From a virus: 64,000 bases of DNA. Position numbers and translations under genes: made by a program. Shown one piece after another: positions 9,606 through 64,000 of this stretch (the first letter of the stretch is position 1; each line of letters starts with the position of its first letter). Under the pieces are notes generated by a model. It did no database searches and was not told the DNA's origin. It worked only from the letters and a program-made list of their open reading frames with translations. The stretch is taken from the IMG/VR virus record IMGVR_UViG_3300028284_000001. The stretch is one strand, 5' to 3'.

Positions 9606-9620
9606 AGTTTATATATCTTG

Positions 9621-36513: not shown

Positions 36514-37827
36514 TTAGTTTTTAATTTTTTTACTTACTATAACTTCAGTCTCATCTGAGAATCTAGCATGAGGTCCAACCCCACCTTCTCTGAAAATACC
36601 TCCAGTCATTCTACCTTTAAAAATACCATCTCTTCCAAAAACATAACAGTTTTTTAAATGACAGCTACCATGTACAAACGAAGATTCAACTTTAGAATCT
36701 GCCACTTCAGCACCTTGGTATAGATTTGATCTTAATATTTGTGCTCCTTCGATTTTACCACCGTAAATTTCACAATTCTCAAGATTACCAGATAACTTGC
36801 AATTAACAAATTCAAAACCGTCTAATAAATATGCTGTTTTAAAAACACCATCTTTAACTTGGATCGCCCCATAATCAGAATCATAGTTAATTACGCCCTC
36901 TTCCATACTACCGTTCGATAGAAGATCTAAGACTTTTTTCTTAAATCGATTCCATTGGACTCTAATAACCTGAGGATCATCTTGTAAATCTACTAGTATA
37001 TGTATCTTAGGCCAATGTTTATTTACGGCGCTATAGTCTTTTAACATAGCCATTAGCGGCTCATTTTTCTGTAAAATCCTTTTCATCTCTATTTTATTCT
37101 CAGGTGTAAACCTAGGATTAAAACAAGAATTAAAAATTGACAGGATAAACATGTCAGCTAAATTTAAAATATCTTCAGTTCTTTTTTCGTAATCAGCACC
37201 ACCAACATATCTAAATTCTAGATAATTGCTTTGAGCCTTTTCAAAGTTAATACCGTAATATTTAGTATTAGCAAATGTAAAGTTATCTGAACTTATTAAA
37301 TTTTCATTGTAATAAAAGGCTTCATGTTTAGGCATAACCCATTTAATAGATTTTGCATAAGTAGAATTTTCTCTATTAGGGAAGTATTTGTAAACTCTCT
37401 TCTCGTCGAATTCTAAAATAAACTTTAAAATATTCATTTTAGAAATCATTAGAGTATCTTCTAAACAGTCTGGGTTAAAAGACATGTTTAGGTGGATAGA
37501 GGCTCGATCATTTGTATAACCGTTCTCTCTAATCCATCCCAACATTTTAATGATAACTAATCTTGCATCACGATATAGCATCGCTCCAGTTACAAGTTCC
37601 ATAAGGCCTTTACCACCAGACATATCTGGTTCAAGTTTAAAAACCTCTTTACTAGGTTGAAAGTCTGAATGTGCCTTAGTCTCTAATCTAATTTTACGAT
37701 TAAGTAACTTAGATATAGAATCTACAGTAGCTTGTTCTTCTAGATTTGAGTAGAATTCAAATTCAATCCCAATCTGACTTGAGTTGAGTATTGAAATCCT
37801 ACTAGATTCTTTGTTTAGTTTTTGCAT
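36514..37827 (-). CDS. Putative amidoligase (COOH-NH2 ligase) with C-terminal beta-helix-like repeats
   Basis: IGIEFEF, EPD.S, MELVT, ASIHLNMS, KYYGIN and LEFRY motifs; late motif at 37852-37860. Confidence 0.8.
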   Translation of the reverse strand: MQKLNKESSRISILNSSQIGIEFEFYSNLEEQATVDSISKLLNRKIRLETKAHSDFQPSKEVFKLEPDMSGGKGLMELVTGAMLYRDARLVIIKMLGWIRENGYTNDRASIHLNMSFNPDCLEDTLMISKMNILKFILEFDEKRVYKYFPNRENSTYAKSIKWVMPKHEAFYYNENLISSDNFTFANTKYYGINFEKAQSNYLEFRYVGGADYEKRTEDILNLADMFILSIFNSCFNPRFTPENKIEMKRILQKNEPLMAMLKDYSAVNKHWPKIHILVDLQDDPQVIRVQWNRFKKKVLDLLSNGSMEEGVINYDSDYGAIQVKDGVFKTAYLLDGFEFVNCKLSGNLENCEIYGGKIEGAQILRSNLYQGAEVADSKVESSFVHGSCHLKNCYVFGRDGIFKGRMTGGIFREGGVGPHARFSDETEVIVSKKIKN

Positions 37828-37877: not shown

Positions 37878-39161
37878 TTATTGGGGCATCTTCAAAAACA
37901 CCTTCATTGTACCTTCATCAATCCTAGTAATTTGAACAGTGATCTTGTCACCAGGGTTAAATACAGTCATTGTTTCTTCTCCAATCTCACTAACGTGTAG
38001 TAATCCAGTTACACCATCTTCAATATTAATAAACAAACCATAGTCTTTTTTAGACTTAACAGTTGCTTCTACCACTGATGGTATTGAGTATCTAGTAGAT
38101 ATGTTAATCCAAGGATTAACTTCTACGACATCCTTCTGAGTTAACGTAATTTTATTATTACTAATAATATCTTTTACTTTAAACGCAATAGCATCTCCTG
38201 GTTTAATCTCTCTAGCTTTGAATTTAGTTAAAGTATCTTCGTCTAAGTCGTTGTTGTGAATCATACCTGTTAAGCATTTATCAAATTCAACAAATACACC
38301 ATACTTAGCAGTTCCAGTTACTAGACCCTGCTTATCTTCAGAAATACTTTCTTTTAAATTATCTATAGCTTGTGGTATAAGTGCTTGTAAGTATTTTCTA
38401 TGTGATACTACAATCGTGCCTCTGTCTGCTGAGAAGCTTACTGGTACAACATAAATTTCTTCACCTATAATAGAACTAAAGTCTGATAGTTTATTAATAC
38501 CTGCAAGTGAACCTGGCATAAAGCAATTAATACCCTGTACTTCTACAACGTATCCGCCATTTTCAATCATGTTCTTTACAGTACCGATCCATGCAGTTCT
38601 ACCTTCCTCAATTCCATTTCTTAAATCTGTGAATGTTTTATGCTTAATACCACCAGTAATAGTTCCTGCTAGTAATCCTTTTGTTTCTGTAATTAAGACT
38701 GCAGTCTCATCACCAACCGAACTAGCTTTTACAATATCAGATTCTTTACCGAAGTTAACGTAAACTAATTCTCTATAACCAACATCAACTGTGATATATT
38801 GTTGATCTATTCCGTAAATAATACCTTCATGGATTTCACCCTCATTAACATTAGGTTTTATATCTTGTCCAAACTCTTCCATTGTATCGTAGAGTTGCTG
38901 CGCATACGGCTCTCTAGAAAATACCTTATCACCATCTTTAGTTTTAATATGTGGGTTTGGTTTTCTATACCTAGTTGGGCATGTGCTTTCGTAAGCATCC
39001 CATAGGAACTCTCCATTTTCATCGTAAAATTCGTCGTGTTGTCCAACAACTTCTTCTGGCTTTGTGGTTGCCGTTGTTGTTTCTTGGTTTGTAGTTTCTT
39101 CTTTAACTACGGTGATTGTTGCATCGGAAGTATCTCCGATTCGTTTTCTCTTCTGAGTCAT
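37878..39161 (-). CDS. rpsA: Ribosomal protein S1 homologue, four S1 domains
   Basis: EGEIHEG..VDVG, GGYVVEVQGINCFMPGS, YGVFVEF..GMIH, DYGLFINI..GLLHVSEI; N-terminal EFLWDAYE. Confidence 0.85.
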   Translation of the reverse strand: MTQKRKRIGDTSDATITVVKEETTNQETTTATTKPEEVVGQHDEFYDENGEFLWDAYESTCPTRYRKPNPHIKTKDGDKVFSREPYAQQLYDTMEEFGQDIKPNVNEGEIHEGIIYGIDQQYITVDVGYRELVYVNFGKESDIVKASSVGDETAVLITETKGLLAGTITGGIKHKTFTDLRNGIEEGRTAWIGTVKNMIENGGYVVEVQGINCFMPGSLAGINKLSDFSSIIGEEIYVVPVSFSADRGTIVVSHRKYLQALIPQAIDNLKESISEDKQGLVTGTAKYGVFVEFDKCLTGMIHNNDLDEDTLTKFKAREIKPGDAIAFKVKDIISNNKITLTQKDVVEVNPWINISTRYSIPSVVEATVKSKKDYGLFINIEDGVTGLLHVSEIGEETMTVFNPGDKITVQITRIDEGTMKVFLKMPQ

Positions 39162-39205
39162 GTATTTTTATTTAAAAGGTTATCTTATACTATCTTAGTA
39201 ACATA

Positions 39206-39282
39206 TTATATATCTGCTAAAATATTTGTATTATCCAGCTTTGCTCTTTCCTAAATTTTAGGTGTTTAACAGTTTATATATC
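39206..39282 (-). promoter_or_regulatory. Two tandem late-type promoters upstream of S1
   Basis: GATATATAA at 39206-39214 and 39274-39282. Confidence 0.6.
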
Positions 39283-39389: not shown

Positions 39390-39788
39390 ATGAGTAAATT
39401 TAATGTAAATGAAGTAAAGTGTAATGGAGTCGGTGGCTCCGGTTACCAGGCAGTTCTTAAACACAAGGATGCAATCCAAGGAATTTGTCAAGAAGTTAGA
39501 GATCTTATCGGTATTGAAAAACTATGGGAACTAGCAACTACAGATCCTAATGTGGATTATCACCAAGGTACTAGATTTAATTCTGTAGAAGATAATGCAT
39601 ACCGACTTATTACTGGAATAGCAGGACATGTGGCTGAGTATCTCCCGACAAGTGAGTTAATCGAGATGCACGTAGGAGCCATTCTACCGATGTTAACAAT
39701 GAAAGATAAGGTAACACTTGTTGCCGATGCTTGTAGGGACTGTGCGTCTGCAGACCATTGGTATACCTTCGAAAAAGACTGGGGTTAA
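39390..39788 (+). CDS. Hypothetical early protein (counter-oriented, own promoter)
   Basis: 132 aa downstream of the cassette; stop overlaps the stop of the convergent gene (TTAA). Confidence 0.8.
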   Translation: MSKFNVNEVKCNGVGGSGYQAVLKHKDAIQGICQEVRDLIGIEKLWELATTDPNVDYHQGTRFNSVEDNAYRLITGIAGHVAEYLPTSELIEMHVGAILPMLTMKDKVTLVADACRDCASADHWYTFEKDWG

Positions 39789-59397: not shown

Positions 59398-60074
59398 AGT
59401 CTAAATCCTAAATGTTTTGCACGAGCTTCCCATTTAACTAGGACTTCTGCTCTTTCTTTACTATTTATCTCCCCCATCTCTTCTTTTGAGTCTAGGTATC
59501 TATTTACAGCATCAATAGTCTTCTCACCTCTCTTCTTAGCCTCAAATCTTAAGCCTTGTAGATTTGCATCAACTTCTTTAGGTAGGAGTAAATAATGCAT
59601 CTTTGGTAACATGCCATTATTAATTAAAGCTCTCATCATATCATCTGGTTCATTAGGTTTACCCTTTCTATAATTACCAATGTCAATACCATCTTGAGTA
59701 ATATGTTCAATCTCATGCCTTAAGACATCTGCTAAAACAAAGTAAATCTCTTCCCAATAAGTAGGTAACCAATCTGGATTACAAGCAAAATCTATATTAA
59801 TAAATGGATCTTGCCAATCACCTTCATCATCTTCATCTCTGCCATCAGCTCCAGTTGAATTTAGGACTTCAAATCCCTTGCCTTTAAAATAAATTGAACA
59901 GTTTAGGTCAAATGTAAGACCTGGGTTCTGTACTTCAAATGAGTAACTAGAAGATTTTTTGCCGTTCTCAAAATCTAATACCCACTGTTTAAAACAATCA
60001 CCTAATAATTTATTAGAGATAGAATCTAGTTTTGTATATCTTTCAAATATAGCCTTTGATTTAATATGCTTCAT
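59394..60074 (-). CDS. Zincin-like metallopeptidase with MKHIK leader
   Basis: HEIEH (HExxH) plus downstream Y..L.KEVDA third-ligand motif; late motif 60078-60086. Confidence 0.7.
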   Translation of the reverse strand: MKHIKSKAIFERYTKLDSISNKLLGDCFKQWVLDFENGKKSSSYSFEVQNPGLTFDLNCSIYFKGKGFEVLNSTGADGRDEDDEGDWQDPFINIDFACNPDWLPTYWEEIYFVLADVLRHEIEHITQDGIDIGNYRKGKPNEPDDMMRALINNGMLPKMHYLLLPKEVDANLQGLRFEAKKRGEKTIDAVNRYLDSKEEMGEINSKERAEVLVKWEARAKHLGFRL

Positions 60075-60090
60075 TTATTATATATCAAAC

Positions 60091-63820: not shown

Positions 63821-64000
63821 TTAAGATAATAAAGCAAATATAGCATCAATGTCTTCTCTAGATTGCCAGCCAGCAACTTCTTCATGGTGCTCTTTAATAA
63901 ACAAGTCTGTAATAAACCTGCCTTCTGGATCTATAATAGCAATTTCAAATGAACTGTATTCAGTAGGACTGTTTAAATTCTCACGAGGAGTACAGTAAAC
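63821..64000 (-). CDS. C-terminal part of a small hypothetical protein
   Basis: Open frame VYCTPREN..EYSSFEIA..EVAGW..LLS* running in from the window edge. Confidence 0.65.
   Translation of the reverse strand, partial: VYCTPRENLNSPTEYSSFEIAIIDPEGRFITDLFIKEHHEEVAGWQSREDIDAIFALLS

What the first reader, a model, noticed from the sequence alone, without database searches (positions are those of the whole stretch)
37878..39282. Phage-encoded truncated ribosomal protein S1 with a Bacteroidota-type anchor, under tandem late promoters
Seen: four S1 domains (host Gram-negative S1 normally has six), preceded by EFLWDAYE, which matches the DFNWDAYE-like N-terminal segment I recall from Bacteroides RpsA. 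Known: S1 domains 1-2 bind the 30S and later domains bind A/U-rich leaders; Bacteroidota largely initiate without Shine-Dalgarno pairing; S1 genes have been reported in some huge phages but not functionally studied to my knowledge. Inference: it replaces host S1 late in infection to retune ribosomes toward phage A-rich or leaderless mRNAs.
Basis: partly seen in the sequence, partly recalled or inferred. Interest (0 to 1): 0.75.

Follow-up and report, generated by a model that had tools for sequence, protein, structure and literature searches.

The report
Phage copy of ribosomal protein S1
A large marine phage that probably infects Flavobacteriaceae carries a shortened ribosomal protein S1 that keeps the segments the host protein uses to dock on the ribosome, so it most likely sits on host ribosomes and favours phage protein synthesis; similar genes were reported in huge phages but never shown to be true S1.

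Summary
Window 37878-39161 (-) encodes a 427-aa protein colinear with domains D1-D4 of bacterial bS1. All best sequence and fold matches are bS1, and the AlphaFold2 model shows four OB folds.

Before D1 lie two conserved helices. The first carries GEFLWDAYE. I found the F-x-W motif in 23 of 30 sampled class Bacteroidia RpsA, in none of 30 from other Bacteroidota classes and in none of 61 other cellular S1. A 2026 cryo-EM study places this helix of Flavobacterium johnsoniae bS1 on uS8. The second helix (YAQQLYD) occupies the position of the E. coli uS2-binding helix.

The gene is phage-borne. It sits in a myovirus baseplate/neck module, and the same synteny holds in relatives at about 37% identity. 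The family has over 119 clusters on contigs up to 250 kb. Window genes lack Shine-Dalgarno sequences. Three of five long related contigs also encode bS21.

The D1-D4 phylogeny does not resolve a donor. "Late promoter" is inference from a real, strand-specific motif (9 hits against 2.1 expected).

This is a new member of the "possible rpS1" already reported in huge phages. The scan had also noted this stretch in another window.

The parts
37878..39161 (-). Phage bS1 homologue, 427 aa plus stop codon
   Evidence: ORF. rpsA models and PDB bS1 are colinear with it. The family has more than 119 clusters at 66-81% identity.
39030..39161 (-). Residues 1-44: disordered N-terminal tail with a conserved basic patch (K4, R5, R7, I8)
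   Evidence: pLDDT is below 50 for residues 1-40. Family conservation is 0.48 for residues 13-44, but R5, R7 and I8 are at least 95% conserved.
38982..39029 (-). Residues 45-60: first anchor helix with GEFLWDAYE, the Bacteroidia bS1-type F-x-W motif
   Evidence: Predicted helix at 54-58. G50, F52, W54, Y57 and E58 are at least 95% conserved in 119 family members. Motif census. The homologous F. johnsoniae helix FLANFNWHNF contacts uS8 (PMC13000457).
38925..38981 (-). Residues 61-79: phage-specific conserved insert between the two anchor helices
   Evidence: Absent from Bacteroidia RpsA in alignment A5. Conservation is 0.81 within the family. Also present in the Lak-C1 homologue.
38868..38924 (-). 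Residues 80-98: second helix (KVFSREPYAQQLYDTMEEF), in the position of the uS2-binding N-terminal helix of E. coli bS1
   Evidence: Predicted helix at 87-97, 12 residues before D1. Y86, A87, Q88, Q89, Y91 and D92 are at least 95% conserved. The consensus KVxSxEPYAQELYD holds across 57 diverse phage homologues. E. coli reference in PMC10123108.
38661..38834 (-). S1 domain D1, residues 110-167
   Evidence: AF2 OB fold. Aligns with E. coli D1. R130 aligns with E. coli Lys43, which inserts into the uS2 pocket, and is at least 95% conserved.
38403..38597 (-). S1 domain D2, residues 189-253; the best conserved segment
   Evidence: AF2 model. Family conservation 0.92. G203, F214 and P216 are invariant even against cellular S1.
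38139..38333 (-). S1 domain D3, residues 277-341; canonical RNA-binding type
   Evidence: Pfam S1. Y287, F290 and H302 align with the aromatic and His positions of E. coli D3.
37890..38078 (-). S1 domain D4, residues 362-424; canonical RNA-binding type
   Evidence: Best Pfam S1 stretch, 363-423. Y374, F377 and H389 align with E. coli D4.
39206..39214 (-). Proximal GATATATAA promoter-like motif, 44 nt before the start codon
   Evidence: Of 78 related loci, 56 have an exact copy and 77 a relaxed copy within 300 nt upstream of S1.
39274..39282 (-). Distal GATATATAA motif, 112 nt before the start codon
   Evidence: A second exact copy is seen in only 5 of 78 relatives, so the tandem arrangement is not conserved.

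Best explanation
The gene encodes a phage version of ribosomal protein bS1. It consists of two N-terminal docking helices, the two protein-binding domains D1-D2 and two RNA-binding domains D3-D4.

During infection of a Flavobacteriaceae (class Bacteroidia) host, it docks at the normal bS1 site on the 30S subunit. Helix 1 (F-x-W) would sit on uS8. Helix 2 and D1 would sit on uS2, next to bS21. There it competes with or replaces host bS1. A conserved phage-only insert and a basic N-terminal patch may strengthen docking.

From that site its D3-D4 domains capture the A-rich, Shine-Dalgarno-less leaders of phage mRNAs. This raises output of phage proteins, probably when structural proteins are made.

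Shown here: homology, domain count, motif distribution, conservation, phage context and SD-less leaders.

Inferred: binding to the ribosome, competition with host bS1, mRNA preference and timing.
For: 1. True bS1 homology, colinear over D1-D4, including the non-RNA-binding D1-D2 that are specific to bS1.
2. Both anchor elements are as conserved as the OB domains (0.80-0.84 against 0.79-0.92), while the preceding tail is not (0.48).
3. The F-x-W helix is restricted to class Bacteroidia bS1 among the cellular S1 sampled. It is the segment seen bound to uS8 in the F. johnsoniae 30S, where the bS1 N-terminus binds uS2 and uS8 (PMC13000457).
4. R130 aligns with E. coli Lys43, and the helix 2 aromatics Y86 and Y91 lie where Phe5 and Phe9 stack on uS2. 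The uS2 aromatic partner positions are invariant Tyr in 23 Flavobacteriaceae uS2 sequences.
5. D3-D4 keep the RNA-binding aromatic and His residues.
6. Host and phage context:
   - A relative at 80% identity lies in a Flavobacteriaceae MAG.
   - The helicase's nearest relatives are Bacteroidota jumbo phages.
   - Only 3-4 of about 44 window genes have an SD core, and upstream A is about 50%.
7. The gene is old and fixed in this lineage. Homologues at about 37% identity have the same neighbours: hub, S1, a ~420-aa protein, gp13-like, gp25-like, wedge.
8. Three of five long related contigs also encode bS21, which stabilises the bS1 N-terminus on the 30S (PMC13000457 and PMC10123108).
Against: - There is no direct test of binding. 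The complex predictor was unavailable.
- All rpsA equivalog models score far below their cut-offs (156.6 against 524 bits).
- D1-D4 is no closer to Bacteroidia bS1 than to other bS1. A 591-aa PDB bS1 chain, probably F. johnsoniae (inferred from length only), scores E 6e-23 against 4e-40 for E. coli. Identity to the MAG's own RpsA is 27%. The free ML tree places the phage clade outside Bacteroidota.
- Helix 2 has its aromatics spaced i, i+5 rather than i, i+4 as in E. coli. E. coli Phe79 aligns with Leu.
- A 19-residue insert separates the two helices, so the host helix-loop-helix geometry may not be kept.
- Only 17 of 70 short phage-type representatives carry the strict F-x-W motif, so the family can work without it.
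- Placement inside a baseplate/neck module is unusual for a translation factor.
Confidence: 0.55

Rival explanations
1. Ribosome-bound blocker. The protein docks at the bS1 site but, lacking D5-D6, recruits ordinary host mRNAs poorly. It would then act mainly to shut off host translation, or to leave ribosomes selective for leaderless or very short-leader phage mRNAs.
For: - The anchors and D1-D2 are the best conserved parts, and D5-D6 are absent.
- Two window genes have the promoter-like motif only 3 nt before their ATG, which would fit leaderless or near-leaderless transcripts.
- From my own memory, not checked here: E. coli S1 N-terminal fragments make ribosomes selective for leaderless mRNA.
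Against: - D3 and D4 keep their RNA-binding residues and are strongly conserved (0.87 and 0.82), which a pure blocker would not need.
- Most window genes have 20-60 nt A-rich upstream regions rather than none.
Confidence: 0.15
2. Off-ribosome RNA-binding factor. It could act as an RNA chaperone, mRNA stabiliser or cofactor of a phage enzyme, as host S1 serves Q-beta replicase and (from memory) T4 RegB. It would use D3-D4 for RNA and D1-D2 for a phage partner.
For: - In Q-beta replicase, D1-D2 of S1 bind protein partners other than the ribosome (PMC10123108; PDB 4q7j and 4r71 are among the hits).
- Al-Shayeb et al. left open a role 'on or off the ribosome'.
- A ~420-437-aa neighbour is always adjacent.
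Against: An off-ribosome role does not explain conservation of a helix that, among the cellular S1 sampled, occurs only in Bacteroidia bS1 and contacts uS8 there. It also does not explain the co-occurrence with bS1's partner on the 30S, bS21.
Confidence: 0.15
3. Virion-packaged factor. The protein is made late with the baseplate and neck proteins, packaged, and delivered at the next infection so that ribosomes are retuned from the start. This could hold together with the best explanation.
For: - The gene is embedded in the baseplate/neck module across distant relatives.
- The same idea has been proposed for phage bS21 (PMC9723584).
Against: - Its N-terminus (MTQKRKRIGD) does not resemble the MK[HY]IK...LNE-type tags that earlier notes of this scan describe on putative capsid cargo in this genome (compared by eye only).
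- No virion proteome exists.
Confidence: 0.07

Closest known systems
Bacterial ribosomal protein bS1 (RpsA), especially class Bacteroidia bS1 such as Flavobacterium johnsoniae bS1 (PMC13000457)
   Same: - Colinear D1-D4.
- An N-terminal helix with the F-x-W aromatic motif, followed by a second helix just before D1.
- RNA-binding residues kept in D3-D4.
- Works in an SD-less translation setting.
   Different: - Four domains instead of six.
- Only about 24-27% identity.
- Fails every rpsA equivalog cut-off.
- Has a 19-residue conserved insert between the two helices and a basic N-terminal patch.
- Encoded in a phage structural module.
'Possible rpS1' genes of huge phages (Al-Shayeb et al. 2020, PMC7162821), e.g. 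LR756500, and the S1-like gene of Prevotella Lak megaphages
   Same: - Same protein family: 37.7% identity to LR756500 and 28% to Lak.
- The phages carrying it lack SD sequences.
- Lak-C1 has the same F-N-W motif, insert and YAQELYD helix.
   Different: - This one comes from a marine lineage of roughly 250-280 kb that is predicted to infect Flavobacteriaceae.
- LR756500 has a different N-terminus (NPFEEEF type).
- Lak-C1 stops after D3 at 369 aa.
- The published work did not establish that these are true bS1 or describe any anchor.
Phage-encoded ribosomal protein bS21 (Mizuno et al. 2019, PMC6375957; Chen et al. 2022, PMC9723584)
   Same: - A phage copy of a small-subunit protein of the mRNA exit/platform region.
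- Bacteroidia hosts.
- The gene lies among structural genes, and bS21 was shown to be transcribed late.
- Substitution into host ribosomes has been proposed.
   Different: - A different protein.
- bS21 has some experimental support: incorporation into E. coli ribosomes and metatranscriptomes. The S1 has none.
- Relatives of this phage carry both genes.
Naturally short S1 proteins: four-domain S1 of Firmicutes and three-domain plastid/cyanobacterial S1 (from general knowledge; plastid chains appear as weak hits)
   Same: Fewer than six S1 domains.
   Different: By my recollection, those forms lack the ribosome-anchoring D1 or bind weakly. The phage protein keeps D1-D2 and the N-terminal anchors and loses the C-terminal D5-D6.

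Membership tests
Ribosomal protein bS1 (RpsA) | Colinear tandem S1 domains, with the divergent protein-binding D1-D2 followed by canonical RNA-binding domains | tested here: met
   Residues 104-425 align with E. coli bS1 17-346. Pfam recognises only D3 and D4, as expected for bS1. Four OB folds in the model. bS1 chains top Foldseek.
Ribosomal protein bS1 (RpsA) | Scores above the curated NCBIfam rpsA equivalog cut-off | tested here: not met
   Best is NF004952 at 156.6 bits against a cut-off of 524. TIGR00717 scores 139 against 577.
Ribosomal protein bS1 (RpsA) | Six S1 domains, the Gram-negative form | tested here: not met
   Four domains. The protein ends after D4. The whole phage family is 425-438 aa.
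Ribosomal protein bS1 (RpsA) | N-terminal helix and D1 loop that bind uS2 | tested here: inconclusive
   A conserved helix lies at 87-97 with Y86, Q88 and Y91, and R130 aligns with E. coli Lys43. The aromatic spacing differs from E. coli. The complex prediction could not be run.
Ribosomal protein bS1 (RpsA) | Stoichiometric or reversible association with the 30S subunit | not testable with these tools
   Needs biochemistry or cryo-EM.
Class Bacteroidia-type bS1 | Aromatic F-x-W helix N-terminal to the uS2 helix, which contacts uS8 in F. johnsoniae | tested here: met
   GEFLWDAYE at residues 50-58. F52, W54 and Y57 are at least 95% conserved. The motif is in 23 of 30 Bacteroidia RpsA, with three more I/V-x-W variants, and in 0 of 30 other Bacteroidota and 0 of 61 other cellular S1. 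Structural role from PMC13000457.
Class Bacteroidia-type bS1 | D1-D4 branch within Bacteroidia RpsA in a phylogeny | tested here: inconclusive
   The free ML tree puts the phage clade, on a stem of 1.14 substitutions per site, among other cellular S1. Constraining phage plus Bacteroidia costs 25.5 lnL, p-AU 0.14, so it is not rejected. The comparison set was biased, because the cellular rows were the top hits to the query.
Phage-encoded ribosomal protein homologues | Encoded on a bona fide phage genome rather than on host contamination | tested here: met
   Flanked by baseplate wedge, gp25-like, gp13-like and gp5-like hub genes. Eighty IMG/VR loci found. Same synteny in distant homologues. No tRNA or rRNA in the window.

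The most novel reading that the evidence does not exclude
This jumbo-phage lineage of Bacteroidia encodes a matched pair, its own bS1 and its own bS21. Together they rebuild the mRNA-exit/platform corner of the host 30S (the uS2-uS8-bS21-bS1 neighbourhood) into a phage-specialised ribosome for SD-less phage messages. The S1 N-terminal anchor would be the host-specific module of the family: F-x-W type in some phages, NPF type in others.
Probability: 0.3. Interest if true: 0.8.

Novelty: new member of a known kind. Interest (0 to 1): 0.58.

Why it matters
How Bacteroidia pick start codons without Shine-Dalgarno pairing is an open question, and bS1 and bS21 are the proteins currently implicated.

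Phage S1-like genes have been listed for years, but they were set aside because the S1 domain is so widespread. Here the case for a real ribosomal S1 rests on a class-specific docking helix whose structural role was solved only in 2026.

That makes the hypothesis directly testable in the existing F. johnsoniae in vitro initiation and cryo-EM systems. The tests are whether the phage protein binds the uS2/uS8 site, whether it displaces host bS1, and whether it prefers phage leaders.

If it does, it would be an example of a virus reprogramming ribosome composition with more than one subunit protein. The family is abundant in marine metagenomes, so it would bear on phage control of Flavobacteriaceae, which are major degraders of algal carbon.

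Tried and rejected
- **Complex prediction.** I submitted phage S1 residues 41-190 with Flavobacteriaceae uS2 and uS8, using alignments A1, A3 and A4.
- **PHROGs.** No family matched the S1 protein.
- **Megablast of 15 kb against phage genomes.** No match.
- **The listing of cluster members.** It returned almost no organism names, so the cellular comparison rows stayed unnamed apart from one Wallbacteria and one Deltaproteobacteria MAG.
- **Mixture-model (PMSF) tree of 99 rows.** It did not finish on one CPU. I fell back to LG+G4 with 76 rows.
- **The 'quick' tree.** It was suboptimal. An AU test against it gave a misleading p of 0.92 for phage plus Bacteroidia. I repeated the test against a full search.
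- **Donor of the gene.** Unresolved.
- **bS21 in the window.** Not found. In relatives it lies 25-28 kb upstream of S1, which would fall just past the window end.
- **IF3.** Not found in five related contigs.
- **Rfam.** Nothing in the window.
- **Anchor type against host.** I asked whether NPF-type S1 phages use SD and so have a different host. LR756500 is also SD-less (0 of 43 genes), so this gave no separation.
- **Rejected: host contamination.** The phage synteny rules it out.
- **Rejected: truncated pseudogene.** The length is uniform across the family.
Full report
**What is there**

The finding's coordinates cover one ORF on the minus strand, 37878-39161 (427 aa), plus 121 nt of upstream DNA.

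- Pfam finds two canonical S1 domains at the C-terminal end.
- The eleven best NCBIfam matches are all rpsA (30S protein S1) models. They align colinearly, for example residues 86-426 with positions 28-374 of the 580-position NF004952. All score far below the curated cut-offs, 156.6 against 524 bits.
- Against PDB sequences, every strong hit is bS1. Residues 104-425 align with E. coli bS1 residues 17-346, which are domains D1 to D4 (E 4e-40).
- An AlphaFold2 model built on 57 homologues (mean pLDDT 81) shows a disordered tail (1-40), a short helix at 54-58 and a helix at 87-97. Four OB folds follow at 110-167, 189-253, 277-341 and 362-424.
- Foldseek's best matches are E. coli bS1 chains in 30S complexes (9gut_B, E 1e-27).
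- D3 and D4 keep the aromatic and histidine positions of RNA-binding S1 domains: Y287, F290, H302 and Y374, F377, H389.

The short form is native: more than 119 clusters of close relatives are all 425-438 aa.

**The N-terminal segments**

I tested this on RpsA genes taken from sampled genomes.

- In class Bacteroidia, 23 of 30 RpsA carry F[DNSLM]W about 40 residues before D1. Three more carry I/V-x-W. At least two of the other four are artefacts of my start-codon choice.
- In 30 RpsA from other classes of phylum Bacteroidota the motif is absent.
- It is also absent from 61 long cellular S1 representatives.
- One Bacteroidia RpsA reads GEFNWDAYES, against the phage's GEFLWDAYES.

A 2026 cryo-EM study of the Flavobacterium johnsoniae 30S subunit found that the first 42 residues of bS1 form a helix-loop-helix bound stably to uS2 and uS8. 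The aromatic helix FLANFNWHNF lies against uS8. This N-terminus becomes disordered when bS21 is missing (PMC13000457).

The phage residues F52, W54 and Y57 match F15, W17 and F20 of that helix. They are at least 95% conserved in 119 family members.

The phage's second helix (EPYAQQLYDTMEEF, residues 84-97) lies 12 residues before D1. That is where E. coli bS1 has the helix whose Phe5 and Phe9 stack on uS2 Phe32 (PMC10123108). Y86, A87, Q88, Q89, Y91 and D92 are at least 95% conserved. The consensus KVxSxEPYAQELYD runs through 57 diverse phage homologues.

R130 aligns with E. coli Lys43, which enters an acidic pocket of uS2. The uS2 aromatic positions are invariant Tyr in 23 Flavobacteriaceae uS2 sequences.

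Within the family the two helices and the 19-residue insert between them are as conserved (0.80-0.84) as the OB domains (0.79-0.92). The preceding tail is not (0.48), except for a basic patch at its very start.

The F-x-W helix is a class Bacteroidia feature that touches uS8. The probable uS2 helix is the second one.

**Context**

The gene is phage-borne.

- Its neighbours are a gp6-like baseplate wedge, a gp25-like protein, a gp13-like neck protein and a gp5-like hub, with helicases further out.
- Eighty IMG/VR loci carry close relatives. Family contigs reach 250 kb. One 212-kb contig is rated 76% complete, which implies a genome of roughly 280 kb.
- Two homologues at only about 37% identity sit in the same order: hub, small gene, S1, a ~420-aa protein, gp13-like, a ~115-aa protein, a ~600-aa wedge. 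The gene is therefore old and fixed in this lineage.
- The same protein family includes the S1-like gene of LR756500, a huge phage from Al-Shayeb et al. (37.7% identity), and that of the Prevotella Lak megaphages.
- Lak-C1 has the same F-N-W motif, insert and YAQELYD helix but stops after D3. LR756500 has a different, NPF-type N-terminus.

Host evidence:

- A relative at 80% identity lies in a Flavobacteriaceae MAG, which has its own 633-aa RpsA.
- The window's helicase is closest to those of LR756500, Lak, Chryseobacterium phage MA9V-2 and Tenacibaculum phage pT24.
- Only 3-4 of about 44 window genes have a Shine-Dalgarno core. The 20 nt before start codons are about 50% A and under 10% G.

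**Relatives also encode bS21**

In three of five long related contigs a 62-71-aa ORF matches Ribosomal_S21 above the Pfam cut-off. It lies 25-28 kb upstream of S1 in the same orientation. One of these is the 212-kb contig whose S1 is 80% identical to ours.

By eye, the ORF has a Tyr at position 53. That is close to the Bacteroidia-specific Tyr54 discussed in PMC9723584.

In this window the equivalent position would fall just beyond base 64000, and tblastn finds no bS21 inside the window.

bS21 is the protein that stabilises the bS1 N-terminus on the 30S.

**Upstream motif**

GATATATAA occurs nine times in the window, always on the coding strand, against 2.1 expected and never nine in 100 shuffles. 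Eight copies lie within 112 nt upstream of an ORF start. Two copies precede S1, at -44 and -112.

Among 78 related loci, 56 have at least one exact copy and 77 a relaxed copy upstream of S1. Only five have two exact copies.

The motif is real and conserved, and a promoter role is plausible. "Late" and "tandem" as functional statements are inference. The sigma-70 consensus scan was at chance level.

**Phylogeny**

I built an LG+G4 tree of D1-D4 with 76 rows.

- The 28 short phage-type proteins form one clade, starred in the quick tree, on a stem of 1.14 substitutions per site.
- In the full search that clade attaches among non-Bacteroidota cellular S1 (lnL -35388.25).
- Forcing phage plus Bacteroidia together costs 25.5 lnL units and is not rejected (p-AU 0.14).
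- The cellular rows were the best hits to the query, which biases the placement. The mixture model did not finish.

The donor is unresolved. The D1-D4 body gives no support for a recent capture from Bacteroidia. The link to Bacteroidia rests on the anchor helix.

**Mechanism**

Most likely (0.55), the protein docks at the bS1 site of the host 30S through helix 1 (uS8), helix 2 and D1 (uS2), and uses D3-D4 to recruit A-rich SD-less phage leaders. The rivals are:

- a ribosome-bound blocker that selects leaderless messages (0.15);
- an off-ribosome RNA-binding cofactor (0.15);
- a virion-packaged factor, which is compatible with the first explanation (0.07).

**What was known**

- Al-Shayeb et al. 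2020 listed "possible rpS1" in huge phages and noted that such phages rarely have SD sequences. They stated that true rpS1 is hard to confirm.
- Mizuno et al. 2019 set S1-domain proteins aside as ambiguous.
- Chen et al. 2022 studied phage bS21 in Bacteroidetes phages without mentioning S1.
- A 2025 description of large aquatic Flavobacteriia phages does not mention ribosomal proteins.

This is therefore a new member of a reported but uncharacterised kind. The added evidence that it is a real bS1 derivative consists of a host-class-specific anchor, conserved synteny and a co-encoded bS21 in relatives.

An earlier first-stage note of this scan flagged the same stretch from another window.

Noticed in passing
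L198:1476-1665 (-), L199:1491-1677 (+), L200:1458-1671 (+); related IMG/VR contigs: Three of five long contigs of related phages encode a 62-71-aa bS21 homologue (Pfam Ribosomal_S21, 41-49 bits against a cut-off of 27). It lies 25-28 kb upstream of their S1 gene in the same orientation. In this window that position would fall just past base 64000.
   Followed up: partly
window 60078-60086 and 9609-9617 (-): In two genes the GATATATAA motif ends only 3 nt before the ATG (starts at 60074 and 9605). This would mean leaderless or near-leaderless transcripts, a wrongly called start codon, or a motif that is not a promoter.
   Followed up: no
window 36514-37827 (-): The 437-aa gene directly downstream of S1 has no PHROG match. 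A gene of similar size (416-438 aa) follows S1 in distant relatives (L149, L150, L151). Earlier notes of the scan call it an amidoligase. It may work together with S1.
   Followed up: no
L202:622-1791 (LR756500) and many representatives: The phage S1 family has at least two N-terminal types. One is the F-x-W type (this phage, Lak, P0121, P0124, P0140 and others). The other is a (D/E)(N/D)PF(D/E) type (LR756500, P0133, P0137, P0149 and others). Both types keep the EPYAQELYD-like helix. The LR756500 region is also SD-less (0 of 43 genes).
   Followed up: partly
L201:565-1674 (Prevotella phage Lak-C1): The Lak megaphage homologue is 369 aa. It has the F-N-W motif, the insert and the YAQELYD helix, but ends after the third S1 domain.
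   Followed up: partly
G001 (Flavobacteriaceae MAG SAT1509): L147 and L148: The MAG that holds a related phage contig has two different uS8 genes and many ambiguous bases. It is a mixed bin, so its link between phage and host is weak evidence.
   Followed up: partly
window 39390-39788 (+): A lone 132-aa ORF on the opposite strand faces the S1 promoter region, in a window otherwise coded almost entirely on the minus strand. It has no PHROG match.
   Followed up: no
window 39138-39152 (-), residues 4-8 of S1: A basic patch (KRKRI) at the extreme N-terminus is conserved across the family, and similar patches (KKRRRI, KKRKRL, RPRI) occur in more distant homologues. The following 35 residues are variable. 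It could be an rRNA contact or a targeting signal.
   Followed up: partly
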